A DNA stretch of 64,000 nucleotides from Candidatus Woesearchaeota archaeon (lineage in GTDB: Archaea; Nanobdellota; Nanobdellia; Woesearchaeales; SM23-78). Below the pieces are notes generated by a model, which did no database searches, had not been told where the DNA came from, and saw nothing but the letters and a program-made list of their open reading frames with translations. Numbering within the stretch: the stretch's first letter is position 1; every line of letters starts with the position of its first letter. Both the position numbers and the translations under genes were made by a program. Where the stretch lies: the NCBI GenBank assembly GCA_016932315.1, contig JAFGDD010000004.1, forward strand, positions 125,466-189,465. The letters run 5' to 3'. Below, piece by piece: positions 20,984 through 62,464 of this stretch.

Positions 20984-20994
20984 TTTTCATTACA

Positions 20995-44490: not shown

Positions 44491-44591
44491 GAAAGCTGCC
44501 AGTGCCACCCCGAAGGGGGCAGCCCCCGTCACAGCAACCTTGCACCTTGACATAAATGTCTGCGGTGCAGTTGCAGGTTGCGGCAGCTTTC
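44491..44591. repeat. GC-rich structured element 'A' (family A/B/C), abutting the stop codon of the Trm5-like gene
   Basis: 10-bp closing inverted repeat gaaagctgcc...ggcagctttc. Core gccaccccgaagggggcagcccccgtcacagc, where a G5 run can pair with either the upstream C4 or the downstream C5 run. There is an internal second hairpin. Confidence 0.5.
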
Positions 44592-46372
44592 TATAATATT
44601 TCAACATCAACGCAAATCCGGTATTCCCTCGGAGCATTCTGCCCGCACTTGACTGTGTTAAGAACCTTGAATTTCTTGCCTGCTTTGTCGCAGGATTTCT
44701 TTATCTTCTCAACGCTCTTCTCAAATTCATCTTCTTTCTGGAAGTCATAGAAGTGTATTATCGTCCCTTTATGGCTCGCTGCAAGCGCAACATCAAGGTA
44801 GTCTGCTGCTGATTTTGGCAATGGCATTAGTATCCTGTCGAATGTCTTCTGGAACTTGCTTAGATAATGCCAGGATGATATCATCTCCTCATTTTTTACT
44901 TCATCAGAGCCATTAACCTCTGTCACGCCAAGATTAACCAATGGCAGAATGCCTGTAATATCGAGGCGTGATGATTCTGAAAGCTTGCCGCTGTGAACAT
45001 TATCTTTGTAGTCATTCAGGTGAAAGTAGGTGTTGCAGGATTTTTGTATTTCCTTTATCAGTTCAAAGCATTCTGGATTAGAGTAGAGGTAGAGCATGTG
45101 GCAAGTGTCTATGCACATGTTCTTGAGCCCTGTTGCTTTTATCACCCTGAAAATGCTTTCTTTTGCTGAGAAGAGGAAGATGTGGTTGTTCTCAAAGTAT
45201 ATTTTATCATAGTATTTACTAAAGGTTTTTATGTTTTCAATCATTCCTTCTTCCATGGATTCGCTTTCCTCGCTTTTCCTCTTGCTGTTTACAGGATGAA
45301 TTATGAGGCTGACATCAAATTCTTTTATTAGTGAAATCATTTTTTGGCAGAGCTCAGTATTTGCATTCTGGCTTATCATGTCCATGCTTTCCTTGGCTTC
45401 AAGAGGCTGGTGAACCATTACTTTCTTGCCTTTTTGCTGCAATTGCTTGATTGTCTTTTTCAAGCTCTCAAAGTTTTCCCTGAAATCATTGCCAAACGTG
45501 TGCAGCTCGATTATCAGAGGGTTCTCTTTCATCCTGGTTCGCAGTTGCTCAGGATTAATTGCTGACTTCAATCCGATAATTCTCTTGTAAAAGCCAGGCA
45601 GCGCAGTCTTCACATCCTCGTTAATCAAGAATGCATTATTTATCTTGTTAAATCGAAGGTTTTCAATGCCGTACTTGTGAGCCACAGGGTTAATCTCAAT
45701 GCCATAAACATATTTTGCAGGAGTGTTTTTTGCGATGGTGCAGACATAAGGCGCGCAGCCAGAGAACATCACCAGAACATTTTCTTGCTTTCCTGATTTT
45801 GCTGCTTTGTTAATAAACTCCACAATCCTTTTCCTTTCTGTGCTCAGCCTGGGTGAGAAATAGACTTGCTCAACGTCAAGCTTCAGGACAACATTGTTCT
45901 CCTTGTAAACTGCTTCCTTGGTTTTAATGCCAGCGAGGTGCTCAAGCTTTTGTATCCTGAAAACTCCTTCATGCCTTCCTTTCTTAAGAACAGTCTTGAT
46001 ATTCTTGTTAATCTTCAAAGCCTCTTCTGCAATTATTTTTTCTTTCTTCTCAAGCTCTGCAGGTATCTCAAGAATAGCAATGTTGCCGATGATGTCCATG
46101 GATCTCTTCAGAATCTTTAAATCATCCTTGTCAAGCTTTTTTTTAAGAGAATTCTTCAGATTAGTTGGTAATGAAATCTTTTTTAATGCCTTATTAACAA
46201 TTTTGTAACTATTTTTGAATTTTTTCTTAATGGGAAAATAAACAAATCCTTTTTGCCTGAGGATCAGGTGTTCTTTGTCAAACAATCCTTTGGCTATTAT
46301 CTCCTTCTTAGCCTTCTCTGCTTCCTTAATAGGCACTTTGATGCATAGCATGGCTTTAATGGAGAAAATCAC
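44591..46372 (-). CDS. Trm5/Taw2-family tRNA methyltransferase carrying a ~240-aa inserted endonuclease-IV-like (xylose-isomerase-like TIM barrel) domain
   Basis: - **Trm5 motifs:** DIIGNIAILEIP, VYFSPRLSTER, motif I VLVMFSGCAPYV, VYGIEINPVAHKYGIENLRFNKINN, and C-terminal DRILMPLPKSAADYL...VKCGQNAPREYRICVDV.
- **Insert position:** between residues ~269 and ~510.
- **Insert motifs:** LIIHP, MIENI, NMCIDTCHMLY and FHLNDYKDNVHSGK, paralleling Nfo's NFHPGSH, VIEN, VCIDTCHAF and HLNDAK. Confidence 0.6.
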   Translation of the reverse strand: MIFSIKAMLCIKVPIKEAEKAKKEIIAKGLFDKEHLILRQKGFVYFPIKKKFKNSYKIVNKALKKISLPTNLKNSLKKKLDKDDLKILKRSMDIIGNIAILEIPAELEKKEKIIAEEALKINKNIKTVLKKGRHEGVFRIQKLEHLAGIKTKEAVYKENNVVLKLDVEQVYFSPRLSTERKRIVEFINKAAKSGKQENVLVMFSGCAPYVCTIAKNTPAKYVYGIEINPVAHKYGIENLRFNKINNAFLINEDVKTALPGFYKRIIGLKSAINPEQLRTRMKENPLIIELHTFGNDFRENFESLKKTIKQLQQKGKKVMVHQPLEAKESMDMISQNANTELCQKMISLIKEFDVSLIIHPVNSKRKSEESESMEEGMIENIKTFSKYYDKIYFENNHIFLFSAKESIFRVIKATGLKNMCIDTCHMLYLYSNPECFELIKEIQKSCNTYFHLNDYKDNVHSGKLSESSRLDITGILPLVNLGVTEVNGSDEVKNEEMISSWHYLSKFQKTFDRILMPLPKSAADYLDVALAASHKGTIIHFYDFQKEDEFEKSVEKIKKSCDKAGKKFKVLNTVKCGQNAPREYRICVDVEIL

Positions 46373-46393
46373 TATTTTAAAGGTTTATGAATT

Positions 46394-47290
46394 TTAAAGC
46401 AACAACAGCACTGCACCTATTACCATTATAAGACAAGCCAGACTTCTTCTGAGAACATGCTCTTCGTGAAATAATCCTCCTCCAATAACAGTAGAAACCA
46501 GGGATGAAAGCCTTTTTATGGGAATGACCAGGCTTACTAGTACGCCGGGAAGCGAGAGCGAGTATTGTAATGCAAGCCTGCTGCCCACCAACAAGACAGC
46601 TATTGCCAGGCTTATCTTCCAATGATGCCTTAATCCATGGCTTACTCCATTGAACCCGTCATGGAAGATGAGCAGCATCAGGATGAAGTTTATTGCTGTG
46701 AAGAAATGTGCTAGTGCTATGTAGAAGAAAACATTTATTCCTAACCCGCCATCAACTGGACTGCCCACTATTCTTTTATCAATTATGCTTCCTACTCCGT
46801 AAAGTAGCAGGGCAAGAAATATCTCCCTAATGTGCTTCATCTTTGCGAAATGAATGAAAGGCTCGAACAAAGCTTTATAGGAATGGCTTTCAAGAAGGTA
46901 TGCCCCTCCTACCAGAACTATTATTCCTGTGCCTTGGAGCAAGGTGATTTTTTCTCCTAAAAAAATAGATGCTAATATTGCTGTGAATAAAGGAGCTATA
47001 ACCAGTAGTGGGCTGGTAATGGATATGGCTATGTGCCTCATGGCTTTGGCCGTGAGCAGGAAAGCAACTGCTCCTATCAATGAAGCAACATATATGATAA
47101 TTATGGTTGGGACGCTAGGCTTTATTGGGAATAAGAAGAAGAAAGGCAATGTTATTATCATAGTAAATATTGATACTGTGGCTGAGAACTCCATTGCATG
47201 CTGCTTTAGCAAGGTCTTCTTCTCAACAATGCTAGAAGCGCTTATGAGCACGGCTGAAAGGAAAGCAAACACCAACCAAACAGAACCCAT
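46394..47290 (-). CDS. EamA/DMT-family transporter
   Basis: 298 aa, 10 TM helices, duplicated EamA-like halves. Confidence 0.7.
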   Translation of the reverse strand: MGSVWLVFAFLSAVLISASSIVEKKTLLKQHAMEFSATVSIFTMIITLPFFFLFPIKPSVPTIIIIYVASLIGAVAFLLTAKAMRHIAISITSPLLVIAPLFTAILASIFLGEKITLLQGTGIIVLVGGAYLLESHSYKALFEPFIHFAKMKHIREIFLALLLYGVGSIIDKRIVGSPVDGGLGINVFFYIALAHFFTAINFILMLLIFHDGFNGVSHGLRHHWKISLAIAVLLVGSRLALQYSLSLPGVLVSLVIPIKRLSSLVSTVIGGGLFHEEHVLRRSLACLIMVIGAVLLLL

Positions 47291-47316
47291 TTTTTTTCAA
47301 CCTCGATGATACTTTC

Positions 47317-48453
47317 TCATAATCCGCCGACTAATAGGTTGATGGCGCCAAGTATGAACATCACAATGATGATGATTGCTATGAACTTATTGATGTGAAT
47401 GCTGTACTCAGGCTTTCTCTCGCCATGCTTTTTTGCATTCATAACCATTGCAACAACAAGAATACCTACAATTGCTCCTGTTATTACCCCTGCGATATCA
47501 AGTATTGCAACAAAATTGGCAAGCTTGCCGAGCTTTATCAAAAGGAACAATAAAAAAGGGATGAAACAGGCTAATAACCATGAAGTATTCTTTTTTAAGC
47601 CATAATCATACCAAAACAATTCCTTCAATGCAAGGCCTAGTGCCAGGAATGATGTAGTCATTGTTAACAAGGCAAACAATGCGCCTACGAAAGCCATTTT
47701 TTTACCCAGAATAGCTGCTAAGCCAAGCGCTCCTATCTCATTCGTTCCTTTGCCAAGCACTCCGACTATTGACAATGCGAATAAGAAATAAACCACTAAC
47801 GGTATTAAGCTGCCGATTATTATCGCTTTTTTCAATCCCTTCTTATTTTTATCAAGCTCTTCTTTTATTTCAGGAATAGCAGAAGTGCCTATGAATGCAA
47901 ACAGCACCACGCCGTAAGGCACGAATAATTTTGGAAAGCTGAACTCTGACAAATTAGCAGGGTTAAGCCTGAAAATTGCAAGAAAAAATATTAATATGAC
48001 TATAAAAAATACAATAGGCATTGCAAATGATTCTGATTTTTCAATGGCTTCAAGACCAGAGTATACGAGCCAGGACAATACTCCGAAGAAGATGACGCTG
48101 CAAAGCAAGGAATCTAAACCAGTCAGGCTTGCAAGAGCTTCACCTCCTCCCATCATGTAAGCAATCAATGCTCCATAAATTCCTACAACCATGCTTATGA
48201 ACATGAAATATTTACCAGTCTTGCCAGTATACTTTGCTGCATAAGCAGTTAGCTGGTGATTACCCTTGGTGCGCAAAGCAATTTCTCCAAGATAAAGATG
48301 AAGCAACAGGAATACTCCTCCAAGAACTACAATATTAACTAGTCCTGTGACAAAGCCAGCCTTTGCAACTACATAAGGGATGCCTAGGATGCCTGCACCT
48401 ATCATGCAGCCTACAAGCGTGGCAACTGCGCTGAACAACCTCTTTTTTGACAT
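47317..48453 (-). CDS. Amino-acid permease (aromatic/hydroxy amino acid transporter-like family)
   Basis: N-terminal ATLVGCMIGAGILGIPYVVAKAGF signature. About 11 TM helices. Confidence 0.65.
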   Translation of the reverse strand: MSKKRLFSAVATLVGCMIGAGILGIPYVVAKAGFVTGLVNIVVLGGVFLLLHLYLGEIALRTKGNHQLTAYAAKYTGKTGKYFMFISMVVGIYGALIAYMMGGGEALASLTGLDSLLCSVIFFGVLSWLVYSGLEAIEKSESFAMPIVFFIVILIFFLAIFRLNPANLSEFSFPKLFVPYGVVLFAFIGTSAIPEIKEELDKNKKGLKKAIIIGSLIPLVVYFLFALSIVGVLGKGTNEIGALGLAAILGKKMAFVGALFALLTMTTSFLALGLALKELFWYDYGLKKNTSWLLACFIPFLLFLLIKLGKLANFVAILDIAGVITGAIVGILVVAMVMNAKKHGERKPEYSIHINKFIAIIIIVMFILGAINLLVGGL

Positions 48454-48512
48454 TTCAAAGCATATTGCTTTAAAGAGCTTTTATACTTTTCTATGAAAAT
48501 AAGTATTAGAAT

Positions 48513-49211
48513 TTAAAATTTGCCCTTCAACCTGTCAAGAGTTTTTTGAATTGTTTCATAGTCAGGGTTTTCTTTCCAGTTCCAACTGTCTTTTTTTCCA
48601 AGGCCGTGGGCGATTACCTGCCTGAGATATTGTGAGGGAAGCGCAAAATTAACTTCTGTCGTGTACCTCTTCCTGTCGGGCATTTCAACAAATAGATAAG
48701 AGGATTGTTGTTTCTCAAATATATCTGAGATTTTTCCAAAGCCGCTAATCCTTTCTATTTTGTAATAATCTTTTATGCTTAATGCATTCAAAAATCTTAA
48801 AGCAACCGGTTCCATGAGATTAAATGCGACAGGCATAATGTGTAAATGAGTGTGATCCAGGCAGCCTCCTCCCCTAAAGCAGCCAACCCTTGGTCCGTGC
48901 TCAAAAACCACAACATCCGACTTGTAAGTTTCTGAAACTACTCTTCTGGTCAAGTCAAGCACTTCCTCTAGTTCACGGTGATATTTCTCTGGCATCCCGC
49001 CAACTCCAATGAAGTGTTCTTTGGAGCATATCAATAAATAGCCTTCAATTCCCATGGAACCAAGCGTAGGCATTACAAAGAAATTGTCAGACTCATACAC
49101 TGTTATATTATTTGATTCAAATTCCTTTCTGAGCGCACAGCAAGGTTCTTTGAGATCTTTATTTGTCATGTAGGAGAGAAATGATGATAATTTTATAAAT
49201 CTTTTCAACAC
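48513..49211 (-). CDS. HIT-family protein (canonical HTHLHIMP triad), GalT/Ap4A-phosphorylase-like
   Basis: Motif DHTHLHIMP. An N-terminal Cys pair (CCALRKEF) may bind zinc. Confidence 0.55.
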   Translation of the reverse strand: MLKRFIKLSSFLSYMTNKDLKEPCCALRKEFESNNITVYESDNFFVMPTLGSMGIEGYLLICSKEHFIGVGGMPEKYHRELEEVLDLTRRVVSETYKSDVVVFEHGPRVGCFRGGGCLDHTHLHIMPVAFNLMEPVALRFLNALSIKDYYKIERISGFGKISDIFEKQQSSYLFVEMPDRKRYTTEVNFALPSQYLRQVIAHGLGKKDSWNWKENPDYETIQKTLDRLKGKF

Positions 49212-49265
49212 AAGAAATCTAGAAAAAATCCCCTAATCATTTCTGCTTATGACCACCAATTTCCT

Positions 49266-50138
49266 CTAGTCACGCAAATTTATTATTAACGCTTTGACCA
49301 ACTCCTTGCTAGAAGCTGAAATCACAGGGAGGAATTCTTTTTGCCCAAATTGTAAATATCTTCTGTTTTGTAAACTAATGCCATCAAGTGTTGTCATTAT
49401 ACCGCCGGATTCAGTAACTAAGCCGTAGGCAGTGGCGATCTCGAGGTTTCTCTTTCTTGTGCACTCAAGCACCAGATCTGCTTTTCCAGATGCTAAATCA
49501 ACATAATGAACTGCACTTGATGTTGCGCTAAGGTATTTGTAGCCTTTTAACTTAGATAGGAACGTATCTTGAATAAGCGTGATATTCCTATTCTTATCAA
49601 ATTCTTCATCTGCGTATATTATTGTTTTCCCTTTAATAAGATGCTTTGCGCTAGAGCAACTGATTGGCTTTTCTTTTCCATTAATTAAAATGAAGCTTCC
49701 TTTACCTTTTGCAGCATGAAAAAGTTTTCTGGTGGAATGCTCCATGACCCCGCTAAAAACATAATTATCATATTTAGGATTTAAATTGGAAAAGATTCCA
49801 AGCATGGTTCCGTATCTTCCTTTTTTCCTTGACTTTTTATACTCTTTAGTACCATCCAATCCATCAAGCACTGCTAATAACACAGGATTCTCTGCAATAT
49901 CAAGTTCTCCGTGCTCTTCAGAAATAATCTTTATTGGAATCCGGGCTTTCCTAAAAGTTTCAATAACAGCATTCTCTGCTTCTATATCGCCCATAAGAGA
50001 CATGTCTCCGCAGGGATTTTTTTGAACCATTGCTAATCCTTTTTCGCCCAGATTATCAACTGTCCTCAAAGCTTTTTTTAATGCTTCAATTCCCAACTTT
50101 GATAACTGATCAGCATCCATTTTAAAAGAAATCTCCAA
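49266..50138 (-). CDS. Inositol-monophosphatase/fructose-1,6-bisphosphatase family protein (SuhB-like)
   Basis: Motifs LDGLDGTKEY (DPIDGT-like) and the ATAYGLVTESGG region. 290 aa. Confidence 0.65.
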   Translation of the reverse strand: MEISFKMDADQLSKLGIEALKKALRTVDNLGEKGLAMVQKNPCGDMSLMGDIEAENAVIETFRKARIPIKIISEEHGELDIAENPVLLAVLDGLDGTKEYKKSRKKGRYGTMLGIFSNLNPKYDNYVFSGVMEHSTRKLFHAAKGKGSFILINGKEKPISCSSAKHLIKGKTIIYADEEFDKNRNITLIQDTFLSKLKGYKYLSATSSAVHYVDLASGKADLVLECTRKRNLEIATAYGLVTESGGIMTTLDGISLQNRRYLQFGQKEFLPVISASSKELVKALIINLRD

Positions 50139-51153
50139 GTCCTTTCTGCTTTCTGTCTGCGCTCTCCTCTAGTTTTGCTAGAGCATTCTCTACTCTTTCA
50201 TTGCTGAAATCATGCTCCTCGACCAGCAGTTGGATTAATTTCTCCTTGTTAACAGGCTCCCATTTGAGATGATAATGGCTGGTTACTTTCATGTTCTTTA
50301 TCGTATCAAATACTTCTTTCCATGAATAATCAAAGCTTTCATCCCATTTTGCTTCTTTGAAGATGGTGTCATAATCATTGCCGTGTTTTTTTACCAGTGT
50401 CAATGCTTTTTTTGGCCCGATGCCTTTTATTCCGCCAACATTATAATCAGTGCCTACAAGAATGCTGAGAATGATAAGTTGTTCCTGGCTTATGCCTAGC
50501 TCTGCAAGCACTTCCCTGAGCTCAATAATCTCAGGAGATATATCATCATATGCATATGCTCCTGGCCTTTTTCTCTTGCCACTAATTGTCAGGTTCTTGA
50601 CAAGCTTTGAGGCTTTGAATATAAAACAGTCAGCGTCCTGGCTCAACACATAATCAGCATCTCCTTTTTCCACGATAAATGATGCCTGAGCTTCTCCTTC
50701 GCTAGGAGCCTGCACAATGCACTGCCCCAATGCCTTTATCAGCTCCTTTGCATCTTCTATCATCTCTGGCGTTAACCTTGAGGTTCTTGCTGCAAACTTC
50801 TTCATCTCTTCCAAATCTTCTTTCTTGGCAGCTTCCTCGTACTTCTTCTGAGCATCAATCTTGATTTCCTTTCTTCTTTCCCTTTCCTTGTGCTTTAGTT
50901 CAGGAACTTCGCCGTCAAAGCAGAATATGAACTTGATATTGTAAGCCATTAATTTTGTAATCCTGTGAAATAATCCAGATAAATGGCTGGTGACCCTGCC
51001 TTTGCTGTCCTGAAGCAGCGAGCCGTCAGCCTGCCTTATGCTGCTAAGAAACTGGTAAAGAAGATTATAAGTATCAACTGCAAGAGTCTTGTTCTTCAAG
51101 TCCTCAATCCTGATTTCCTTCGAAGTAAGTATTTCTGTGATTGCGAGGCCCAT
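50122..51153 (-). CDS. fen: Flap endonuclease 1
   Basis: N domain with LAVDTYNLLYQFL, the I domain and a C-terminal PIP-like GLGDFF. Confidence 0.9.
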   Translation of the reverse strand: MGLAITEILTSKEIRIEDLKNKTLAVDTYNLLYQFLSSIRQADGSLLQDSKGRVTSHLSGLFHRITKLMAYNIKFIFCFDGEVPELKHKERERRKEIKIDAQKKYEEAAKKEDLEEMKKFAARTSRLTPEMIEDAKELIKALGQCIVQAPSEGEAQASFIVEKGDADYVLSQDADCFIFKASKLVKNLTISGKRKRPGAYAYDDISPEIIELREVLAELGISQEQLIILSILVGTDYNVGGIKGIGPKKALTLVKKHGNDYDTIFKEAKWDESFDYSWKEVFDTIKNMKVTSHYHLKWEPVNKEKLIQLLVEEHDFSNERVENALAKLEESADRKQKGLGDFF

Positions 51154-51177
51154 CTTATTTTTATCTCCTTGATTTAA

Positions 51178-51741
51178 TTACTTTATCATCTCCATTATTT
51201 TCTCAGCAAGAGGGTAAAGGTTGATTGTATCCTGGCGGTTGTATTCTATCAGTGTTTTTAGTGCTGCCTGGTTTTTCTTTTCCTCGTATTTCTTCCACAT
51301 CTTGGTTGATATTTTTCTCTTGTTGTCAACTGATTCAAGCCTTGTAACTCCAAGAGTTCTTTCCAGTACTTTGAGGTTAGTGTCAAGCTCCAGTCTTCTT
51401 GCAATAAGGTATAAGTCAATCACAGGAATGTTCTTTGGCAGTACGTTAGGGAACTGCTTTTCTATCTCAGGAACATCATAATTGGTGCCGTTAAATGTTA
51501 TGAGCATCTTGCAGCCAGTGAACATCTGCTTAAGGTTTTCTAGTGTCAAGTTTATTCCTCTGATGAATGAATAATACTCTATCTCGCCATCCTTTGGCTT
51601 GTAAACTCCGATGACAGAAATAGGGCCGTCCCAGTAAGTAGCCTCGACATCAATGCACAATGCTTCATGCTTGAATTTCAGGTATAATTCTTTCCAGTGA
51701 AAAAGCGGCAAAACCATTTTGATTCTCCGGTGCAAAGCCAA
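51178..51741 (-). CDS. RNase-H-like 3'-5' exonuclease (DEDD/YprB-like)
   Basis: Exo I motif ALCIDVEAT, and a fold length (~190 aa) typical of PF13482-like proteins. Confidence 0.5.
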   Translation of the reverse strand: MALHRRIKMVLPLFHWKELYLKFKHEALCIDVEATYWDGPISVIGVYKPKDGEIEYYSFIRGINLTLENLKQMFTGCKMLITFNGTNYDVPEIEKQFPNVLPKNIPVIDLYLIARRLELDTNLKVLERTLGVTRLESVDNKRKISTKMWKKYEEKKNQAALKTLIEYNRQDTINLYPLAEKIMEMIK

Positions 51742-51841
51742 GCCCTACTCGCTACCGCTCGTCTCGCCATGCACAACAAAAGCAAGCTTTTGAGTTGCAT
51801 AAGCAGGGCTCGACGGTCTTGTCTTTGCTTTTGATTTTTAT

Positions 51842-52822
51842 TTATATCCTTTTTACTATCATCCCCTTGAAATCCTTGGCTAGCATCTCCTTGGCTTTCT
51901 TGGTAAGCTCGCCTGTTGTGATGAATATGACCGGCAGCTTCTTGGCTTGCCCTTGGATGTAGACTGTGCTCAGGTCTCCGTCATTAACCTTGGTCTTGCT
52001 CTTGGCTTTGCAATAATATTCCTGGCTTCCAATCCTTGACGGAACTGCAATGGTAAGCTCAATATCTGACTTCTTTCTGATAATCTTGTACTCTATAACC
52101 TGGATGTCGTTTGCATTGAAGTATTCAAGAATCTTCTTGAAGAAAGTATCCTTTTCATGCTCAAGGTGCTCTGATGGTATGCTTATCTGCTTTTGCACTT
52201 CAACAGGCTTGTCTTCTTTTTCCTTTTTCTCTTTTGGTTTTTCTTTTTCCTTGACAACCTCTGGCTTGCCTGATTCTTTTTTTGCTTCAGCAGCAGGCTT
52301 TGGAGCTTCAATCTTTTCTTCTTTTTTGATGATAGGCGCAGGCTCAGGAGTCTGGGCTTCTGCTCTCTGAACAGGCTTGACCTGCTTGAATATTATTTTT
52401 TCAGCCTCTTCTGTTGGAGTGAGATACCATTTCCAGTAAATCTCCTTCTGTCCCTTGACAGAAACCTCGAGCGGCTTTGCAAAATCCCTTATGTTACGCA
52501 AGCTCACCCTTAGCAGAGGAGTCAGCTCTGAATCCTTGAGAACTTTCTTTTGTTGCAAATACAAGGCAGTCTGCCTGTCCTTCTCATTCAAGTGCTTGAT
52601 CAGGTTTTGCAGCCTGGATTCTGTTCCTGGATAATAATAAGCAGGGGTTCCTCCTATCTTGGTAAAAGTTACTTTTACCTTGCCGTCGCCTGCAAGCTCA
52701 GAAAGGATGGCTCCGATTATGAGGTTCTCACCGCCCAGCTCTTTTCTTATATCATTAGGTATGACTGGACCTTTGGTTTGCACAATTTTTAGGACTGCGT
52801 CTCTGTTAAGATTGGTTGGCAT
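51842..52822 (-). CDS. Hypothetical protein: N-terminal winged-helix-like domain, Lys/Glu/Pro-rich linker, C-terminal restriction-endonuclease-like (D...E-x-K) domain
   Basis: N-terminal VLKIVQTKGPVIPNDIRKELGGENLIIGAILSELAGDGKV. The C-terminal SDIELTIAV...EYYCKAK pattern resembles a PD-(D/E)xK motif. Confidence 0.35.
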   Translation of the reverse strand: MPTNLNRDAVLKIVQTKGPVIPNDIRKELGGENLIIGAILSELAGDGKVKVTFTKIGGTPAYYYPGTESRLQNLIKHLNEKDRQTALYLQQKKVLKDSELTPLLRVSLRNIRDFAKPLEVSVKGQKEIYWKWYLTPTEEAEKIIFKQVKPVQRAEAQTPEPAPIIKKEEKIEAPKPAAEAKKESGKPEVVKEKEKPKEKKEKEDKPVEVQKQISIPSEHLEHEKDTFFKKILEYFNANDIQVIEYKIIRKKSDIELTIAVPSRIGSQEYYCKAKSKTKVNDGDLSTVYIQGQAKKLPVIFITTGELTKKAKEMLAKDFKGMIVKRI

Positions 52823-52873
52823 TTTTATTCATGAGCAGTATTAGAAAGAGGTTTATATAATTTATCTAAGCGT

Positions 52874-53602
52874 CTATGGTCTCATCCATTTAATCTCATA
52901 ATATGTCACATCGCCTTCGTCGTCAACTATTGCCATGAGAAGCCTTTTCTTGGTGCTGTGCGCTACCCTGTTCTTGGCTGCAAAATCATACCAGGTTAGT
53001 GTTTCTCCTTCGTGGACTGGGAATACTATCCATCTAGCATGGTCTTCGCCAGGCTTCACTCCTCTGTCATAAACCCTGAAATCTGCACCAAACTTTAACG
53101 CTGTTTTTACAATGTAGCCCCTGTTCCTCATATCCTTGAACACGCAATACCTTATCCAGAAATTAGGCTCCACCTTTTTGGCTTTTTGTATGAACGCTTC
53201 AGCATTAAATTTTTTCTTTGCTTCGCTTATCTCAAGCTTTCCCTTTTCAAGCAAATACAATGCTTCTGGAAGTGAGAGCTGGACTTTTCCTCCATCAATA
53301 ATCTGGCCGTAAGCGCTCTTAGCATAAAAGTTCCTTGCCTCATCGTTGGATTCAGTAAGCACTCTTTCCCTGGCAAACATGGCTTTTACTATCTCTTTTT
53401 TCTTGCCTTCCTTATCCTCTTCTTTTTCAGGTTGTTCAGGCGCAAGTGTCTTCTCATCCTCAGCAGCAGGCTCATACTTGACAGGCGCTGATTCAAGCTT
53501 TTCTTCCTCCTGTATGGACTTTATTTCTGCCTCTAACTCAGTCTTCTTGCTCTTAGGCTTCTCCTTCTTTGATTTCTTCTTTGGCATGCTTATTCCTAGC
53601 AT
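52874..53602 (-). CDS. endA: tRNA-splicing endonuclease catalytic subunit (EndA) with a Lys/Glu-rich N-terminal extension; the ORF-track extension to 53947 is probably spurious
   Basis: C-terminal catalytic domain with ALKFGADFRVYDRG and HARWIVFPV...TKKRLLMAIVDDEGDVTYYEI. The proposed start MLGISMPKK at 53602 (or 53587) avoids overlap with rnz on the opposite strand. Confidence 0.75.
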   Translation of the reverse strand: MLGISMPKKKSKKEKPKSKKTELEAEIKSIQEEEKLESAPVKYEPAAEDEKTLAPEQPEKEEDKEGKKKEIVKAMFARERVLTESNDEARNFYAKSAYGQIIDGGKVQLSLPEALYLLEKGKLEISEAKKKFNAEAFIQKAKKVEPNFWIRYCVFKDMRNRGYIVKTALKFGADFRVYDRGVKPGEDHARWIVFPVHEGETLTWYDFAAKNRVAHSTKKRLLMAIVDDEGDVTYYEIKWMRP

Positions 53603-53615
53603 TACGGATGCTTTT

Positions 53616-53690
53616 AAAAAGCTTTGCAAAAAAGTCAAAAAGTCGCCTGAGCCACCCCGTTTGGGGCAACCCCTGACTCCGCTTTGCTTC
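53616..53690. repeat. GC-rich element 'C' (family A/B/C variant) in the endA-rnz divergent intergenic region
   Basis: aaaaagtcgcctgagccaccccgtttggggcaacccctgactccgc shares aaag-yy-gcc...gccacccc-loop-ggggc-ra-cccc with elements A and B. The loop differs (guuu versus gaag) while the stems are kept. Confidence 0.4.
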
Positions 53691-53774
53691 TTTGATATGA
53701 TTATGCCCTCGCAAATTGATGCTAACCTTATTTTTTTAGAAACCATTAAAAACAAGGAAAAAACTCTTATTTTC

Positions 53775-54677
53775 ATGGAAATAACAATGCTGGGCACTAG
53801 CTGTATGGTGCCTACTAAAGAAAGGAATGTGCAAGGAATATTTGTAGACTTCAAAGGAGATGGTTTGCTGTTCGACTGCGGCGAAGGAACCCAAAGGCAG
53901 ATGAATATTGCAGGCATCAACAGGAACAGGATTAGGAAGATATTCATAACTCACTGGCACGGAGACCATGTTGCAGGATTGATCGGGTTATTGCAGACCA
54001 TAAGCAATAATGAGAATCCTCAGAAAGTAATGCTCTTTGGACCAAGGGATACCAAGGAGAGGATTGCTCATCTCATGAGGAGCGTGAGCTTTGAAGATAA
54101 TCGAATGGAGCTCGAAGTCAAAGAGATTAATCCGAATGGTGTTGAAAAGGTTTCTGAAGCAGAAGAATATTATGTTGAAGCAGCTTATCTTGACCACAAA
54201 ATACCATGCCTAGGCTATTCTTTAGTTGAGAAGGACAAGCGCAAGATAAACATGGCAAAAGCAAAAAAGCTTGGCTTACGCGAAGGGCCGCTCATAGGAA
54301 AACTACAGGCAGGCCACAGCGTGAATTTTAAGGGAGCAACCATAACGCCTGACGATGTCTCGCACATAGAGAAAGGAAAGAAGATAGCAATAATACTTGA
54401 CACTTTGCCGTGCAAGAACGCTTATGACTTAGCAAAAGAAGCAGACTTGCTGATTGCAGAATCAGCCTACACTTCTGATTTAGAAGAGAAGTCACTAGAG
54501 TACAAGCACATGACTACAAAGCATGCTGCACTCATAGCCACGACTGCAAATGTGAAGAAGCTAATAATCACTCATTTCTCGCAAAGATACAAGACTGCCA
54601 AGGAATTAGAGGAGGAAATCAAGACTTTCTTCCCTAACAGCCAGGCAGCTTTTGATTTCATGAAGATAAAATTATAA
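53775..54677 (+). CDS. rnz: Ribonuclease Z (tRNA 3'-processing endonuclease); the ORF-track start at 53346 is over-extended
   Basis: MEITMLGTSCMVPTKERN...LFDCGEGTQRQ...IFITHWHGDHVAGL are classic RNase Z motifs. The upstream 143 codons overlap endA antisense and look non-coding. Confidence 0.8.
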   Translation: MEITMLGTSCMVPTKERNVQGIFVDFKGDGLLFDCGEGTQRQMNIAGINRNRIRKIFITHWHGDHVAGLIGLLQTISNNENPQKVMLFGPRDTKERIAHLMRSVSFEDNRMELEVKEINPNGVEKVSEAEEYYVEAAYLDHKIPCLGYSLVEKDKRKINMAKAKKLGLREGPLIGKLQAGHSVNFKGATITPDDVSHIEKGKKIAIILDTLPCKNAYDLAKEADLLIAESAYTSDLEEKSLEYKHMTTKHAALIATTANVKKLIITHFSQRYKTAKELEEEIKTFFPNSQAAFDFMKIKL

Positions 54678-54687
54678 AATTACAAGA

Positions 54688-56223
54688 TTAATCTTTATTA
54701 TCTTTCTTTTTTGGGAATTCTTCTCCGTTCCAGCAGTAAAGGCACAACTTCTCTCGTGGCAAGCCAATAGCTTTTATCATATCGTCGAGGCGTTGATACC
54801 TGAGTGAAGCAACGTGCTTTAGCTCTTTGCGGATTATCTCAACCATTTGTTTGTATTTTTCAGAATCAGGGTTTAGGTATTCACTCACATCATCAATGTT
54901 TTTTCCTTCAATCTCTTTAATAGCTCTCCTAGCAGCCAGTTCATCCATGGTCCTGGTGGAAATATTATACTTGCAAGGCCACATCAAAGGAGGGCAGGCA
55001 GGCCTCACATGTATGCGCCCTAAATCTATCCCTTCAATCTTTGCAACGCTGTAAAGAACGTCAAGATATTCCCTTAATTGCGTTGCCCTGACAATAGAAT
55101 CTTCTGTCAATATAAAATCAGGCTTTTGAAGCAGCTCAAGAATAGGCACAAGTTTTTTCTTTGCAATCTGCTTCCTGATTTTATCATCTGTCGGAGTGTA
55201 ACTCCTTCCATAAGTAGGATCATACTTCAATATTGCTCTCATAAAAGGGATGATCGAACTCAATGCTTCTTTAACAAGATGGCTTAATTGATTGGCATCA
55301 ATATCTTTTTTCTCAAACCTGCTAAAAGCTTCATCAGTTTTTTCCTTTGCAATATTAATAGTCTCATTAGCATAGCCAATGGCATGAGCAGTGCCTGAAT
55401 TAGGGATGCCTCCTACAAAAGAAGCTTTCACATCATCCCTCCTTGCAAGCGCAGCTCCGCAATTGTACCTCGCCAGCTCTGCGCGAATGCCTTCATAGCT
55501 GGAAGCAGGAAAGCCAGTGTAAATCCAGAGAAATGCGCAGATTTGCTTGATATTATCTCCAAGAGATTTTTGCACAAGTCCGGACTCTTCGATTTTGATT
55601 ATCTCTCTTGGCTGAATATTCTTGTAGATGTGAAAACCAAGATTAGAAAAAGCAGTTGTTTCAGAAGCAACAGCCCATGAATTTTCTTTTTTTCCAATGA
55701 ACAAAGGAAACCTGTCACTGGCAGCATAAATTCCTTCTCTAGTCAGCATCACAAGAGAAACAGAGCCATCAATCTTCGCATACATTTTTTCAATCCCATC
55801 AACAATGCTATCGCCCTGATTAATCAGGTTCGCCAATACCTCAACTGTGTTGTGCCTGCCACCTTTCATCCGCTCATTAAAAGCAACTCCTTTGCTCTTT
55901 AATTCAGAGGCAATCTCCTCAGCATTATTTATTGCGCCATCTATGCACACAGCAAAATTACCTACCTTGCCGTCAAGAGTTACAGGCTGCTCTTCCTTCG
56001 GGCTAATGACACCGATGCCATAATTAGTGCTAATCCTTCTAAGATACTCAGAAAACTTTCCCTTGAACTGGGTCTCGCTGATATCCTTAATCCTCTTGTC
56101 AATCCCGCCGTCTGACAAGAAAGCAACTCCGCCGTACTTTGGTCCGCGATGAGTATGATAATCAATCCCATAGAATAAATCGTTAAAACAATTCTTATTT
56201 GAAACAACACCAAATAAGCTCAT
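54688..56223 (-). CDS. Amidophosphoribosyltransferase (PurF)-like protein with the N-terminal nucleophile Cys replaced by Ser
   Basis: - **Ntn-glutaminase-like N-domain:** LFYGIDYHTHRGPKYGG (PurF IYDGLTALQHRGQESAG) and GSVSLVMLTREGIYAASDRFPLFIGK.
- **Type-I PRTase motif:** FILTEDSIVRATQ.
- **Nucleophile substitution:** the protein starts MSLFGV where PurF has MCGIVG. Confidence 0.6.
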   Translation of the reverse strand: MSLFGVVSNKNCFNDLFYGIDYHTHRGPKYGGVAFLSDGGIDKRIKDISETQFKGKFSEYLRRISTNYGIGVISPKEEQPVTLDGKVGNFAVCIDGAINNAEEIASELKSKGVAFNERMKGGRHNTVEVLANLINQGDSIVDGIEKMYAKIDGSVSLVMLTREGIYAASDRFPLFIGKKENSWAVASETTAFSNLGFHIYKNIQPREIIKIEESGLVQKSLGDNIKQICAFLWIYTGFPASSYEGIRAELARYNCGAALARRDDVKASFVGGIPNSGTAHAIGYANETINIAKEKTDEAFSRFEKKDIDANQLSHLVKEALSSIIPFMRAILKYDPTYGRSYTPTDDKIRKQIAKKKLVPILELLQKPDFILTEDSIVRATQLREYLDVLYSVAKIEGIDLGRIHVRPACPPLMWPCKYNISTRTMDELAARRAIKEIEGKNIDDVSEYLNPDSEKYKQMVEIIRKELKHVASLRYQRLDDMIKAIGLPREKLCLYCWNGEEFPKKKDNKD

Positions 56224-56252
56224 CTTACATCATACCCCTTCTAATTAAAGAA

Positions 56253-56468
56253 TCACTGACCCTTGCTAGCCAGCTTGATATCCTCTGATTTTATCGTGCT
56301 CCTCCTCGCATGCCTGCTAAGCTCATCAGCCTTCTTGCTGACCTTTTCTGCATAGTCCTCGAGCACGTCGCGCAAAGCCTCCTTAGCATCCTCACCGACA
56401 CGATAAGCGCCGGCATTCTTCATCAGCTTTTCCATAGCCAACAACGACAAAATCTTCCCCTTAGCCAT
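56253..56468 (-). CDS. Archaeal histone (HMf-like histone fold)
   Basis: 71 aa. AGAYRVGEDAKEALRDVLEDYAEKVSKKADELSRHARRSTIKSEDIKLA aligns with HMfB (RVSDDARIALAKVLEE...AGRKTIKAEDIELA). Confidence 0.8.
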   Translation of the reverse strand: MAKGKILSLLAMEKLMKNAGAYRVGEDAKEALRDVLEDYAEKVSKKADELSRHARRSTIKSEDIKLASKGQ

Positions 56469-56520
56469 GAGAAAAGACTAATATTTGCTTTTTATAAAGT
56501 TATTGTTTAGAATTATTTTT

Positions 56521-57504: not shown

Positions 57505-57535
57505 ATTATTGTCTTTATTATATTCTATATTTAAA

Positions 57536-57586
57536 TTTTATTAATTTGATAAAAATATTAATAGAAAGTTTTATTAATCTGATAAA
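57536..57586. promoter_or_regulatory. Two copies of an 18-nt AT-rich site (ttttattaatttgataaa and ttttattaatctgataaa) 33 nt apart, upstream of the Lrp-like gene
   Basis: Direct repeat with one mismatch, seen in the sequence. It is located 32-82 nt upstream of the minus-strand ATG at 57504 and is compatible with an Lrp-type autoregulatory operator. Confidence 0.35.
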
Positions 57587-57608
57587 TAATACTACTGGGT
57601 GATAGCAA

Positions 57609-58133
57609 ATGAGAGGTGAAACGATGGAATCGGACTTGGAAAAAAGAACAATGGAACTGGCTAAACAAGTTATTCTTTGCTCCAGAGCAGGATTCAAAGA
57701 ATACAAGGAATGGTTTGCTGACAAGACCAAGGGCAAGAACCTTTACACCAATGAAATTGAGGGAGCGGCCTTTGCATATTTATTATTTAAGCGGTTAGAT
57801 TATAGTGCTTCTGCCTTTCTTTTTGGCTGCCCCGCAACATTGAGAGAATTAAATGATGCATCATCATCAACAGTGTCGGAAATGATCTGTGATGTAAGCA
57901 GAAAGGTTGCCTGGCATATCACACTAAAAGAAAATGCAAAAAAACCTTTTTGGAAACGCATCCTCTATGATCATGATTCGACGCTTAGAGCAGATGACGT
58001 TCCAGAAGAGAGGAAAGATGCTTACCAGGCTACCGGGATAAGAATTTATGATGAGCTCCGTTTGAGATTAAAAAAAATGTATGCGGCGTTTTATGCAGAG
58101 CCAAGAAAGAGGAAGTGTAACAATGGACATTAA
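57609..58133 (+). CDS. Hypothetical protein
   Basis: 174-aa ORF. No motif. Confidence 0.35.
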   Translation: MRGETMESDLEKRTMELAKQVILCSRAGFKEYKEWFADKTKGKNLYTNEIEGAAFAYLLFKRLDYSASAFLFGCPATLRELNDASSSTVSEMICDVSRKVAWHITLKENAKKPFWKRILYDHDSTLRADDVPEERKDAYQATGIRIYDELRLRLKKMYAAFYAEPRKRKCNNGH

Positions 58134-58554: not shown

Positions 58555-58578
58555 TTGAATCCAAAAAATAATTTTTAG

Positions 58579-58598
58579 CGATTTTCTGACGAAAATCG
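58579..58598. promoter_or_regulatory. Perfect 8-bp hairpin cgattttc-tgac-gaaaatcg upstream of hjc, preceded by a 2 x 17-nt tandem repeat (gaatccaaaaaataatt, 58540-58573)
   Basis: Inverted and tandem repeats read directly from the sequence. Confidence 0.25.
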
Positions 58599-58634
58599 GT
58601 AGATGTAGGAATTTATTTAAACTCGCACAGCATA

Positions 58635-60327: not shown

Positions 60328-60332
60328 GGGTG

Positions 60333-62293: not shown

Positions 62294-62344
62294 AACAACA
62301 GATTATGCATTCCTGTTTTTAAGCTTTGTTAAATTGGGTTCTAC

Positions 62345-62464
62345 TCGAAAAGTTGCCTTGCCCACCCCGAAGGGGGCGACCCCCGGTCAAACAGCCAGCA
62401 CAAGAACTCAACGCAAGCGTTTTCGTTCTTGTTGCAGTTGTTGGCTGTGGCAACTTTTCTCGAG
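62345..62464. repeat. GC-rich structured element 'B' (family A/B/C)
   Basis: 14-bp closing inverted repeat ctcgaaaagttgcc...ggcaacttttctcgag. Core gcccaccccgaagggggcgacccccggtcaaacagcc is nearly identical to element A. There is an internal second hairpin. Confidence 0.5.

What the first reader, a model, noticed from the sequence alone, without database searches (positions are those of the whole stretch)
44491..44591. Second repeat family with a conserved C4-G5-C5 alternative-hairpin core (elements A, B, C)
- **Copies:** three intergenic copies at 44491-44591, 62345-62464 and 53637-53682 share the motif aaag-yy-gcc-NNN-GCCACCCCG-loop-GGGGC-RA-CCCC(C)G-tca.
- **Alternative pairing:** the G-run can pair with the upstream C-run (loop gaag or guuu) or the downstream C-run (loop cag or caa). 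These mutually exclusive hairpins are typical of switch or attenuator RNAs.
- **Loop variation:** the loop differs between copies while the stems are preserved.
- **Outer stems and contexts:** A and B add 10-14-bp perfect outer stems and a second internal hairpin. Contexts differ: A lies between convergent genes, and B and C lie in divergent promoter regions.
Basis: seen in the sequence. Interest (0 to 1): 0.55.

Follow-up and report, generated by a model that had tools for sequence, protein, structure and literature searches.

The report
Three-armed palindromic repeat of DPANN archaea
The three GC-rich intergenic copies belong to a widespread, apparently undescribed family of small mobile DNA repeats in tiny DPANN archaea that fold into a three-armed hairpin, which the evidence favours over the proposed RNA switch.

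Summary
The core CCACCCCG-N3-GGGGC-N2-CCCC occurs three times in the window, all on the + strand, where none is expected by chance.

The family is not confined to this window. It occurs in dozens of Woesearchaeota/Nanoarchaeota-type genomes and metagenome contigs, always between genes, next to unrelated housekeeping genes, and has no Rfam match.

The element is a set of nested palindromes forming a three-way junction:
- **P1:** a long stem with conserved bulges.
- **P2:** an AT-rich, near-perfect hairpin.
- **P3:** the arm carrying the invariant C4/G4-5/C5 core.

Most copies elsewhere open at P1. Window copies A and B are circular permutations that open at P2, and C is a truncated relic.

Several features point to REP/REPIN- or MITE-like mobile DNA rather than a switch RNA:
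- Near-identical copies sit in different flanks, with sharp ends and no target duplication.
- Close pairs are always tail-to-tail doublets.
- Wobble pairs are rare and equally rare on both strands.
- A terminus is shared with another repeat family in the window.

Only the upstream hairpin covaries. The downstream "alternative hairpin" does not. Instead the 3' C-run tracks the hairpin in mirror register, which suggests a triplex. The mobilising enzyme is not identified.

The parts
44491..44591 (.). Copy A, a complete permuted ('type 2') element. The C-rich strand is on +, so the G-rich strand inferred to fold is on -.
   Evidence: Sequence. It folds as a three-way junction on both strands with RNA and DNA parameters. 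It carries a core match.
44491..44500 (.). A: left arm of outer stem P2 (GAAAGCTGCC). It pairs with 44582-44591 (GGCAGCTTTC).
   Evidence: The two arms are a 10-bp perfect complement. This stem corresponds to the closed P2 hairpin of type-1 copies in other genomes.
44502..44532 (.). A: arm P3. The closing stem is GTG(CC)/(G)TCAC. The core runs A1 (44507), C-run 44508-44511, loop GAA, G-run 44515-44519, linker CAG, C-run 44523-44527.
   Evidence: Closing stem and hairpin 1 covary across the family.
   Evidence: It aligns with B in its 3' half.
44582..44591 (.). A: right arm of outer stem P2 (GGCAGCTTTC). The TAG stop of the minus-strand Trm5/TYW2-like gene (44591-44593) overlaps its last base.
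62344..62464 (.). Copy B, a complete permuted ('type 2') element.
- P2 arms: 62344-62357 and 62449-62464.
- P3: 62358-62390. Core A1 is at 62364, the C-run at 62365-62368, the G-run at 62372-62376 and the second C-run at 62380-62384.
- P1 hairpin: 62391-62448.
   Evidence: Sequence, folds, core matches, alignment with A.
53636..53680 (.). Copy C, a truncated relic.
- Left terminus CAAAAAGTCGCC: 53636-53647.
- P3: closing stem TGAGCC/GACTCC, core A1 at 53654, C-run 53655-53658, G-run 53663-53666, CCCCT at 53670-53674.
- There is no P1 and no right P2 arm.
   Evidence: Sequence. No GGCGACTTTTT follows downstream. The fold is not significant with DNA parameters. Its left terminus is identical to that of another repeat family in the window.

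Best explanation
These are copies of a non-autonomous mobile DNA repeat of DPANN (Woesearchaeota/Nanoarchaeota-type) archaea. It is a REP/REPIN- or MITE-like element of about 100-125 bp.

What is shown:
- **Structure:** the element consists of nested palindromes that fold into a three-way junction.
  - P1 is a long stem with a conserved (A)TGGC/GCCA(T) box, a 3-5-nt bulge and a 1-nt bulge.
  - P2 is an AT-rich, near-perfect 8-12-bp hairpin.
  - P3 is a short closing stem carrying the invariant core A-CCCC-GNN-GGGG-N-CNN-CCCCC.
- **Two forms:** the element exists in two circularly permuted forms. Type 1 has its ends at P1 and is the common form in other genomes. Type 2 has its ends at P2. Window copies A and B are type 2, and C is a 5' fragment.
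- **Mobility:** the element is dispersed between unrelated housekeeping genes. Near-identical copies have different flanks, sharp ends and no obvious target duplication.
- **Doublets:** copies often sit as tail-to-tail inverted doublets that share their 3' arms.

What is inferred:
- The element works as folded single-stranded DNA. The functional strand is probably the G-rich one, which is the window's minus strand. On that strand the commonest P3 closing stem contains a stabilising tandem G.A/A.G (CGAG/GAGC) instead of U.C/C.U, and several C.A mismatches become G.T wobbles.
- It is cut and rejoined in trans by a single-strand-specific enzyme. The best candidate is a Y1 HUH (IS200/RAYT-like) transposase.
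- The two permuted forms arise from a circular or concatemeric intermediate that is opened at either hairpin.
- The conserved three-run core would be the recognition platform for that enzyme.

Any effect on neighbouring genes, such as termination, transcript stability or promoter displacement, would be secondary.
For: **Distribution**
- A core-only scan of one genome per species gives about 32 hits in low-GC DPANN-type MAGs that share the extended context. Hits in high-GC genomes lack that context.
- A flank-only metagenome scan gives about 55 more members among 120 loci.
- There are none in viral contigs.

**Architecture and permutation**
- Segment tables and folds support the three arms.
- L060, L081, L017 and window A and B have the same modules in rotated order.

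**Signs of a DNA-level element**
- Wobble pairs are rare and symmetric. P2 has 485 WC:8 GU on one strand and 507:6 on the other. P1 has 1316:56 and 1262:55. Stem sequences nevertheless differ widely between copies.
- L172, L218 and L228 carry the same element, which ends exactly at ACGCCGCCAT...ATGGCGGCGT, in three unrelated flanks without a target duplication.
- All 12 close pairs are tail-to-tail.
- No gene family is enriched among 86 flanking proteins. Single housekeeping genes (eIF-6, DapB, S3Ae, RIO, Memo) sit between copies.
- In L118, which is syntenic with the window, the element lies at a different site and in the other orientation.
- The terminus AAAAAGTCGCC of copy C and of L060 also bounds a different repeat at 20994-21128 and 30141-30152.

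**Strand**
- 37 of 59 closing stems carry tandem UC/CU, which is GA/AG on the other strand.
- The G-rich strand folds at least as well as the C-rich strand for A and C, and about equally for B.

**Candidate enzyme, from the literature**
- REPs are defined by a GT[AG]G tag at the foot of a 7-20-bp stem with a 2-5-nt loop. They form inverted dimers and are cut in single-stranded form by RAYT (PMC6006769, PMC3733652).
- On the G-rich strand, P2 is preceded by (G)TAGG and followed by CCGTC.
- K07491 (REP-associated tyrosine transposase) was the only transposase KO with strict hits in 256 Nanobdellota proteomes (bioRxiv 10.64898/2026.05.13.725050).
Against: - No transposase of any kind lies next to a copy in the DNA held here. 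The enzyme is therefore a guess.
- No empty site was compared with a filled one, so mobility is inferred from near-identical copies in different flanks.
- The window's own copies A, B and C lack the (G)TAGG and CCGTC junction tags. Those tags are only partly conserved even in the unbiased sample: TAGG in 16 of 24 copies and GTAGG in 9 of 24.
- The very strong conservation of the core, together with clean compensatory changes, would also fit a functional RNA. Expression could not be tested.
- Terminal inverted repeats are atypical for IS200/IS605-type elements.
- All genomes involved are MAGs or metagenome contigs, so copy number per genome and strand bias relative to replication are unknown.
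Confidence: 0.55

Rival explanations
1. It is a classical MITE. On this reading a double-stranded cut-and-paste element is recognised through its terminal inverted repeats (P1a in type 1, P2 in type 2) by a DDE transposase encoded elsewhere. The internal palindromes would be passengers or subterminal binding sites.
For: - The copies have perfect 9-14-bp terminal inverted repeats.
- The terminus AAAAAGTCGCC is shared with a second repeat family in the window.
- A survey found high MITE densities in a Woesearchaeal genome, about 105 per Mb (PMC11602168).
- Copies are small, non-coding, multicopy and intergenic.
Against: - Three near-identical copies show no target-site duplication.
- The termini vary widely between genomes while the interior junction and core are the conserved part. 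This is the reverse of a typical MITE.
- Circular permutation and obligate tail-to-tail doublets are not expected from cut-and-paste of a double-stranded element.
- K07491 was the only transposase KO with strict hits in 256 Nanobdellota proteomes.
Confidence: 0.18
2. It is a structured non-coding RNA. This could be a switch or attenuator with alternative hairpins, or another small RNA or ribozyme-like three-way junction, whose gene has multiplied.
For: - Compensatory changes are strong in all helices.
- The junction and core nucleotides are invariant.
- Circular permutation of a three-way junction is known from small ribozymes (my own knowledge).
- Fold z-scores are about -5.
- One position of the G-run (11) covaries with the 3' C-run (20), which is compatible with a shifted second hairpin.
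Against: - There is no Rfam match at any threshold.
The shifted register is broken at 8 and 21 of 59 cells in its other pairs.
- Wobble pairs make up 1-4% of pairs and are equally frequent on both strands.
- There is no consistent orientation or distance to genes and no coherent gene class.
- Doublets share arms in inverted orientation.
- Near-identical copies sit in different flanks.
- No hammerhead or twister core motifs are present.
Confidence: 0.12
3. It is a host-domesticated architectural or regulatory DNA site, like bacterial BIMEs that bind IHF or gyrase. On this reading the palindromes, or cruciforms formed from them, are bound by a chromatin, replication or repair protein, and the copies are kept for a host function.
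For: - Interior motifs are very highly conserved across distantly related DPANN lineages.
- Density is high in compact genomes, with up to 3 copies in 2.2 kb.
- Palindromes are equally good on both strands.
Against: - Positions are not conserved between syntenic loci.
- Truncated relics such as C exist.
- Recent near-identical copies sit in different flanks.
- No candidate binding protein is linked to the element.
Confidence: 0.08
4. They are integron-type attC recombination sites. On this reading P1 corresponds to the R box, unpaired spacer and L box with an extrahelical base, and P2 and P3 form a branched variable terminal structure.
For: - The bulges in P1 are conserved in position (3-5 nt, then 1 nt) and lie on one strand only.
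- The element appears to work as a single-stranded hairpin.
- Integrons have been reported in DPANN lineages (my own knowledge; not checked here).
Against: - There are no cassette arrays. Copies are single or tight doublets between housekeeping genes.
- There is no GTTRRRY/RYYYAAC consensus at the stem ends, and P1a varies freely.
- Only one integrase-family protein occurs among 86 flanking proteins.
Confidence: 0.03

Closest known systems
REP / REPIN / BIME elements with their RAYT (TnpA-REP, Y1 HUH) transposase in bacteria
   Same: - Both are high-density, strictly extragenic, GC-richer-than-genome palindromic repeats.
- Both form inverted doublets (12 of 12 tail-to-tail).
- Stem sequences differ between genomes while the structure is kept.
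- On the G-rich strand the P2 hairpin fits the REP descriptor of PMC6006769. Its stem is 8-12 bp and its loop 3-4 nt. It is preceded by (G)TAGG and followed by CCGTC, the two REP tags described in PMC3733652.
- A model involving processing of circular intermediates has been proposed for REP arrays (PMC3733652).
   Different: - The unit is a 100-125-bp three-armed junction, not a 20-40-bp hairpin.
- It has terminal inverted repeats and an invariant C4/G4-5/C5 core without a REP counterpart.
- It exists in circularly permuted forms.
- The GTAG tag is only partly conserved and is absent from the window's copies.
- No flanked RAYT gene (REPtron) was found.
- In the survey read here (PMC3733652), tagged REPs are reported only from bacterial phyla.
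Prokaryotic MITEs
   Same: They are small, non-coding and multicopy, carry terminal inverted repeats, are intergenic and can fold as long hairpins. A Woesearchaeal genome was listed among the most MITE-dense archaeal genomes (PMC11602168).
   Different: - No target-site duplication is seen.
- The termini vary while the interior is conserved.
- The interior is a branched set of nested palindromes.
- The element occurs as permuted forms and obligate tail-to-tail doublets.
- No parent IS is known.
T-shaped terminal hairpins of parvoviruses (AAV ITR) and other HUH-endonuclease substrates (from my own knowledge)
   Same: A three-way DNA junction is made of a long palindrome that encloses two short, near-perfect palindromes with 3-nt loops. 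Perfect Watson-Crick arms are maintained at the DNA level, and the structure is recognised as a structure by an HUH enzyme.
   Different: These elements are chromosomal, about 100 bp and highly repeated. They are not ends of a linear replicon. There is no sequence similarity, and no Rep gene is linked. This is a resemblance in how it may work, not membership.
Intramolecular triple helices (H-DNA-type mirror repeats; single-strand triplexes; RNA major-groove triplexes) (from my own knowledge)
   Same: The two C-runs are mirror images around the G-run. They change together with the paired base level by level: C-G.C becomes U-A.U at two levels.
   Different: - The triplex would be only four layers long.
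- The strand order is Y-R-Y, which needs a 4-5-nt linker to run back along the helix.
- No physical evidence exists.
- The covariation rests on a few subfamily-level events.

Membership tests
REP/REPIN (RAYT-mobilised) | The unit is a short (20-40 bp) imperfect palindrome. | tested here: not met
   The whole element is 100-125 bp with three arms. Only its P2 arm has REP dimensions, with an 8-12-bp stem and a 3-4-nt loop.
REP/REPIN (RAYT-mobilised) | A GT[AG]G (or CGTC) tetranucleotide lies 0-2 nt from the foot of the hairpin (PMC6006769, PMC3733652). | tested here: inconclusive
   - In the core-only, junction-unbiased sample of 24 type-1 copies, TAGG precedes P2 on the G-rich strand in 16 and GTAGG in 9.
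- (G/T)ACGG, which reads CCGT(C/A) on the G-rich strand, is present in most copies.
- Window copies A, B and C have neither tag.
REP/REPIN (RAYT-mobilised) | Copies are numerous and strictly extragenic. | tested here: met
   All copies are intergenic. There are up to 3 copies in 2.2 kb, and single housekeeping genes are flanked on both sides. Copy number per complete genome is not known.
REP/REPIN (RAYT-mobilised) | Inverted dimers are frequent. | tested here: met
   12 of 12 pairs closer than 400 nt are tail-to-tail, and none is head-to-head or tandem. Further pairs occur in L052 and L047.
REP/REPIN (RAYT-mobilised) | A cognate Y1 transposase gene is flanked by the repeats (REPtron). | tested here: inconclusive
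   - There is no Y1 or other transposase among the 86 flanking proteins or the genes between copies, and none among the 25 commonest of 50 Pfam families found in the window.
- A tblastn search with an IS608 TnpA sequence written from memory was negative.
- Only stretches of about 8 kb or less (1-14 kb) per locus are held.
- The literature reports K07491 hits in Nanobdellota.
MITE | The element has terminal inverted repeats. | tested here: met
   P1a is 9-11 bp in type 1. P2 is 10-14 bp in A and B.
MITE | A target-site duplication flanks each copy. | tested here: not met
   L172, L218 and L228 carry the same element, and their flanks gatt|...|aagc, aagt|...|ttta and taaa|...|aatc show no duplication. 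Inspection of other copies also shows none.
MITE | An autonomous IS has the same ends. | not tested
Riboswitch / attenuator (switch RNA) | Two mutually exclusive helices are both supported by covariation. | tested here: not met
   - Hairpin 1 is supported.
- The shifted register has one compensated pair, and its other pairs are broken.
Riboswitch / attenuator (switch RNA) | The element holds a fixed position and strand 5' of a coherent gene set. | tested here: not met
   Orientations are mixed: the downstream gene is on the same strand in 17 cases and on the opposite strand in 10. No Pfam family is enriched among the flanking proteins.
Any Rfam family | The score reaches the family's gathering threshold. 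| tested here: not met
   There are no hits in the window. Only tRNAs are found in 15 element-bearing loci. E-value mode gives only chance-level hits.
Small self-cleaving ribozymes (hammerhead, twister) | The junction strands carry the conserved catalytic core nucleotides. | tested here: not met
   The junction strands are (G)AC and CCUA(C), or their complements. There is no CUGANGA...GAAA motif, and Rfam is negative.
Integron attC | Sites form arrays bounding cassettes, carry the R'/R'' consensus and are linked to IntI. | tested here: not met
   Copies are single or in tight doublets between housekeeping genes. The stem ends vary freely.

The most novel reading that the evidence does not exclude
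On this reading, the invariant C4-loop-G4-linker-C5 core is neither a pair of alternative hairpins nor a simple hairpin. It would be a four-layer intramolecular triple helix stacked on the P3 closing stem.

The 3' C-run is a mirror image of the 5' C-run and changes with the Watson-Crick pair level by level:
- C-G.C becomes U-A.U at level 2 in seven distinct cores.
- C-G.C becomes U-A.U at level 1 in three distinct cores.
- G-C with A occurs at level 1 in five distinct cores. On the G-rich strand these five read as T.C-G.

On the G-rich single DNA strand this would be a pH-independent purine-motif triplex (G.G-C, A.A-T, T.C-G). It would sit next to a tandem sheared G.A motif. Together they would serve as the recognition or cleavage platform for a single-strand DNA enzyme. 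If so, this would be a natural, sequence-family-wide example of a selected DNA triplex in archaea.
Probability: 0.2. Interest if true: 0.8.

Novelty: new variant of a known kind. Interest (0 to 1): 0.6.

Why it matters
DPANN archaea have tiny, streamlined genomes and almost no recognised mobile elements. This family adds several things:
- **An overlooked mobile element.** A conserved, high-density, structured repeat spread across Woesearchaeota/Nanoarchaeota-type lineages would be an overlooked part of their mobilome. It may be the first REP/REPIN-like system described in archaea.
- **Clues to mechanism.** The three-way junction, the two circularly permuted forms and the obligate tail-to-tail doublets give concrete handles on a single-strand, circle-based mechanism.
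- **A testable structure.** The mirror-register covariation of the core makes a selected intramolecular triplex directly testable with oligonucleotides.
- **Practical uses.** The family is a ready marker for annotating these genomes. It explains GC-rich islands in intergenic regions, and such palindromes could plausibly contribute to assembly breaks.

Tried and rejected
- **Known RNAs:** Rfam at gathering and E-value thresholds and ARAGORN found nothing on the elements.
- **Viral origin:** the 7 matches in IMG/VR are all in contigs of 63-68% GC without the family context, so they are chance matches.
- **Sequence-only alignment:** MAFFT followed by RNAalifold on 24 full elements recovered only the invariant 4-bp hairpin, because P1 and P2 vary in length and register. 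I therefore measured helices per sequence with constrained folding and used a gapless 33-nt core alignment for pair counts.
- **Covariance model:** none was built. No subset of copies is gapless and also structurally in register, and the nhmmer profiles had already recovered the copies.
- **Gene association:** Pfam scans found only housekeeping families and one integrase. They covered 86 flanking proteins, 61 window proteins and 7 proteins lying between copies.
- **Transposase search:** tblastn with an IS608 TnpA sequence written from memory was negative. This is a weak test.
- **Origin of the window:** the flanking protein of A occurs on a single Logan contig identical to the window, which gives no taxonomy and no empty site. 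Synteny with L118 places the window among Nanoarchaeota-type DPANN archaea.
- **Considered and dropped:**
  - Intrinsic terminator: B and C lie in divergent promoter regions.
  - CRISPR.
  - tRNA-like or split tRNA: there is no cloverleaf.
  - C/D or H/ACA RNAs: the boxes are absent.
  - G-quadruplex: there are only two G-runs, and they covary with C-runs.
- **Literature:** searches for a description of this family in DPANN archaea found none.
Full report
**1. The observation**

The core CCACCCCG-NNN-GGGGC occurs three times in 64 kb, all on the + strand. Shuffles give a mean of 0.2 matches, and none of 100 reaches three. A longer pattern that includes the second C-run gives 3 matches against 0 expected.

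- A (44491-44591) and B (62344-62464) have perfect outer stems and fold far better than shuffled sequence on either strand, with RNA or DNA parameters. The z-scores run from -4.7 to -5.6.
- C (53636-53680) has only the left arm and the core. It does not fold significantly as DNA.

The window is an archaeal chromosome segment of about 40% GC. It encodes ribosomal proteins, SecY, PheRS, Hjc, RFC, a proteasome ATPase, tRNA-intron endonuclease and a Trm5/TYW2-like protein. It has no tRNA and no Rfam hit.

**2. The family outside the window**

I scanned one genome per species with the 17 specified bases of the core. This returned chance hits in high-GC bacteria and about 32 hits in low-GC archaeal MAGs. 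Most of these MAGs are labelled Woesearchaeota or Nanoarchaeota, and a few Methanosarcinales or Euryarchaeota. All of them share a much longer conserved context.

A second scan, of metagenome contigs, specified only the flanks of the core (CCTACTCGCCA-N17-21-CGGCTCG). It added about 55 true members among 120 loci. Viral contigs gave only chance hits.

The window itself is syntenic, at about 67% nucleotide identity, with a Nanoarchaeota MAG (L118). There the element lies at a different site and in the other orientation.

**3. Anatomy**

Most copies ("type 1") read as follows on the C-rich strand:

P1a (about 10 nt, variable) - 3-5-nt bulge - (A)TGGC - 1-nt bulge - P1c (4-5 nt) - (G)AC - P2 hairpin (GG...CC, AT-rich, 8-12 bp, 3-4-nt loop) - CUA(C) - P3 closing stem - A-CCCC-GNN-GGGG-N-CNN-CCCCC - P3 closing stem - 1 nt - P1c' - GCCA(T) - P1a'.

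This is a three-way junction. P1, P2 and the P3 closing stem differ in sequence between copies and remain complementary.

Window copies A and B, together with L060, L081 and L017, carry the same modules in rotated order ("type 2"). The two P2 strands form the outer stem, P3 follows, and P1 is closed by a loop. This is a circular permutation. C is the first 45 nt of a type-2 copy.

**4. RNA or DNA?**

Several results point to a DNA-level mobile element.

- **Wobble pairs.** They are rare and equally rare on both strands. P2 has 485 WC:8 GU on one strand and 507:6 on the other. P1 has 1316:56 and 1262:55. In my experience a selected RNA usually shows more G.U pairs, and shows them on one strand only.
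- **Sharp ends.** L172, L218 and L228 carry essentially the same element, ending at ACGCCGCCAT...ATGGCGGCGT, in three unrelated flanks and without a target duplication.
- **Doublets.** All 12 pairs closer than 400 nt are tail-to-tail, and their 3' arms abut or overlap as CGCCA-NNN-TGGCG.
- **Neighbours.** The flanking genes are unrelated housekeeping genes in every orientation. No Pfam family is enriched among 86 flanking proteins. Single genes such as eIF-6, DapB and S3Ae are flanked by copies on both sides.
- **Shared terminus.** The terminus AAAAAGTCGCC of copy C and of L060 also bounds an unrelated repeat in the window at 20994-21128, with a truncated copy ending at 30152. Two families therefore share ends, as non-autonomous elements served by one enzyme do.
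- **Rfam.** No family matches, on the window or on 15 other loci.

**5. Which strand?**

P1 and P2 give no answer, but P3 does. In 37 of 59 distinct cores the closing stem reads CUCGCC/GGCUCG. That is a tandem U.C/C.U mismatch on the C-rich strand. On the complementary G-rich strand the same stem reads CGAGCC/GGCGAG and carries a tandem G.A/A.G in the C-GA-G context. To my knowledge this is a stabilising sheared motif in both DNA and RNA.

Several C.A mismatches on the C-rich strand become G.T wobbles on the G-rich strand. These are position 13 changed to A, the A1.C21 pair, and two closing pairs. The G-rich strand also folds at least as well for A and C.

I therefore infer that the G-rich strand is the one under structural selection. 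In the window this is the minus strand.

**6. The "alternative hairpins"**

I tested the competing pairing schemes on a gapless alignment of 59 distinct 33-nt cores (A5).

- **Upstream hairpin (positions 2-5 with 12-9).** It has clean compensatory changes: CG 51/GC 5/UA 3 and CG 52/UA 7, with none unpaired.
It has no compensatory change, and the same substitutions break it. No shuffle scores lower on any measure.
- **A shifted register.** It keeps one compensated pair and loses its other pairs in 8 and 21 of 59 cores.
- **A constant offset.** The 3' C-run follows the G-run at a fixed offset: 11 with 20 (GC 52/AU 7) and 12 with 21 (GC 49/AU 3/GU 2/other 5). The covariation score peaks at zero slide, and 0 of 500 shuffles reach it.

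A constant offset means a parallel register, so the two C-runs are mirror images of each other. Level by level the triples are C-G.C, then U-A.U at two different levels, and G-C with A. The last reads T.C-G on the G-rich strand.

This is the pattern expected of a short intramolecular triplex. It would be C+.G-C/U.A-U on the C-rich strand, or G.G-C/A.A-T/T.C-G (purine motif) on the G-rich strand. The topology is feasible. The outer run continues from the closing stem, and the 4-5-nt linker runs back along four layers.

The evidence rests on three subfamily-level events, so I treat the triplex as the most novel reading (probability about 0.2) and not as a conclusion. T21 could also simply pair with A1.

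**7. Mechanism**

What is shown: a structured, mobile, non-coding palindromic DNA family with permuted forms and obligate inverted doublets.

What is inferred: it acts as folded single-stranded DNA and is processed by a single-strand-specific enzyme.

The closest known systems are bacterial REP/REPIN/BIME elements and their RAYT (Y1 HUH) transposases. REPs have the following properties (PMC6006769, PMC3733652):
- a GT[AG]G or CGTC tag at the foot of a 7-20-bp stem with a 2-5-nt loop;
- inverted dimers;
- cleavage in single-stranded form by RAYT;

On the G-rich strand, P2 has these dimensions. It is preceded by (G)TAGG and followed by CCGTC.

A 2026 preprint reports that K07491 (REP-associated tyrosine transposase) was the only transposase KO with strict hits in 256 Nanobdellota proteomes. 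A circular or rolling-circle intermediate that is opened either at the P1 ends or in the P2 loop would yield exactly the two permuted forms observed.

Against this assignment:
- No transposase lies near any copy in the DNA held here.
- The tags are only partly conserved and are missing from A, B and C.
- Terminal inverted repeats are unusual for IS200-type substrates.

A classical DDE-type MITE remains the main rival.

**8. Comparison and novelty**

The element works like a REP/REPIN or MITE. It fails the REP size criterion as a whole and the MITE target-duplication criterion, and no cognate transposase has been shown. I therefore file it as a new variant of the known kind "small structured non-autonomous prokaryotic repeats" and not as a member of either family.

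I found no description of it in Rfam or in the searchable literature. A MITE census noted only that a Woesearchaeal genome is MITE-dense (PMC11602168).

**9. Verdict**

- The switch-RNA part is not supported.
- Interest is moderate to high. The family is widespread, structurally unusual and apparently undescribed in a poorly known archaeal group, and it carries a testable hint of a selected DNA triplex.

Noticed in passing
It is bounded by the same terminus as copy C and L060 (AAAAAAGTCGCC...GGCGACTTTTT). Its interior is unrelated: GCCTGGGCC..., with two direct GGTGAGCGA boxes. The first copy is complete and folds with the 11-bp outer stem (z about -3). The second has lost its right end.
   Followed up: partly
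L012, L040, L059, L139, L141, L160, L170, L222 (21-24 nt between the P3 closing stems); L172, L180, L185, L199 (45-55 nt): These loci carry tail-to-tail doublets. The tight doublets pair a canonical-core copy with a variant-core copy (GCCC/GGGC or TCCC/GGGA). The wider doublets join two subfamilies with different P1a, and three of them have a recurrent spacer GCCTCGC(N)(N). This suggests that the doublet itself is a propagating unit.
   Followed up: partly
L065 4456-5311; L242 117-2169; L209 866-2424: In some DPANN contigs consecutive intergenic regions each hold a copy, so single housekeeping genes are bracketed by elements. In L065, eIF-6 is bracketed by inverted copies. In L242 the bracketed genes are DapB and a DUF7523 protein, and in L209 RIO kinase and S3Ae. 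Local density is very high.
   Followed up: partly
window 5055-5125: A tandem array of about six 12-nt units (TTTATTATAAGA-like) lies in an AT-rich intergenic gap (4936-5151).
   Followed up: no
window 18836-19846 and 19952-20980: Two adjacent same-strand genes are paralogues. Several 25-80-nt stretches of 71-80% identity recur at a spacing of about 1125-1137 nt. This is a local tandem gene duplication.
   Followed up: no
window 44594-46351 (-): The Trm5/TYW2-type methyltransferase is fused to a C-terminal xylose-isomerase-like TIM-barrel (AP_endonuc_2) region, giving a protein of about 586 aa. This architecture is unusual. The gene's stop codon overlaps the last base of copy A.
   Followed up: no
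window 1-64000: Neither ARAGORN nor Rfam detects a tRNA gene in 64 kb of a core chromosomal region, although tRNA-processing genes (tRNA-intron endonuclease, a tRNase Z-like protein, Trm5/TYW2) are present.
   Followed up: no
window 44491-62464: All three copies have the C-rich strand on the + strand, in a stretch where GC skew of the + strand is mostly negative and most genes are on the - strand. The G-rich element strand therefore lies on the locally G-rich strand. This would fit a replication-strand bias, but three copies are too few to test it.
   Followed up: no
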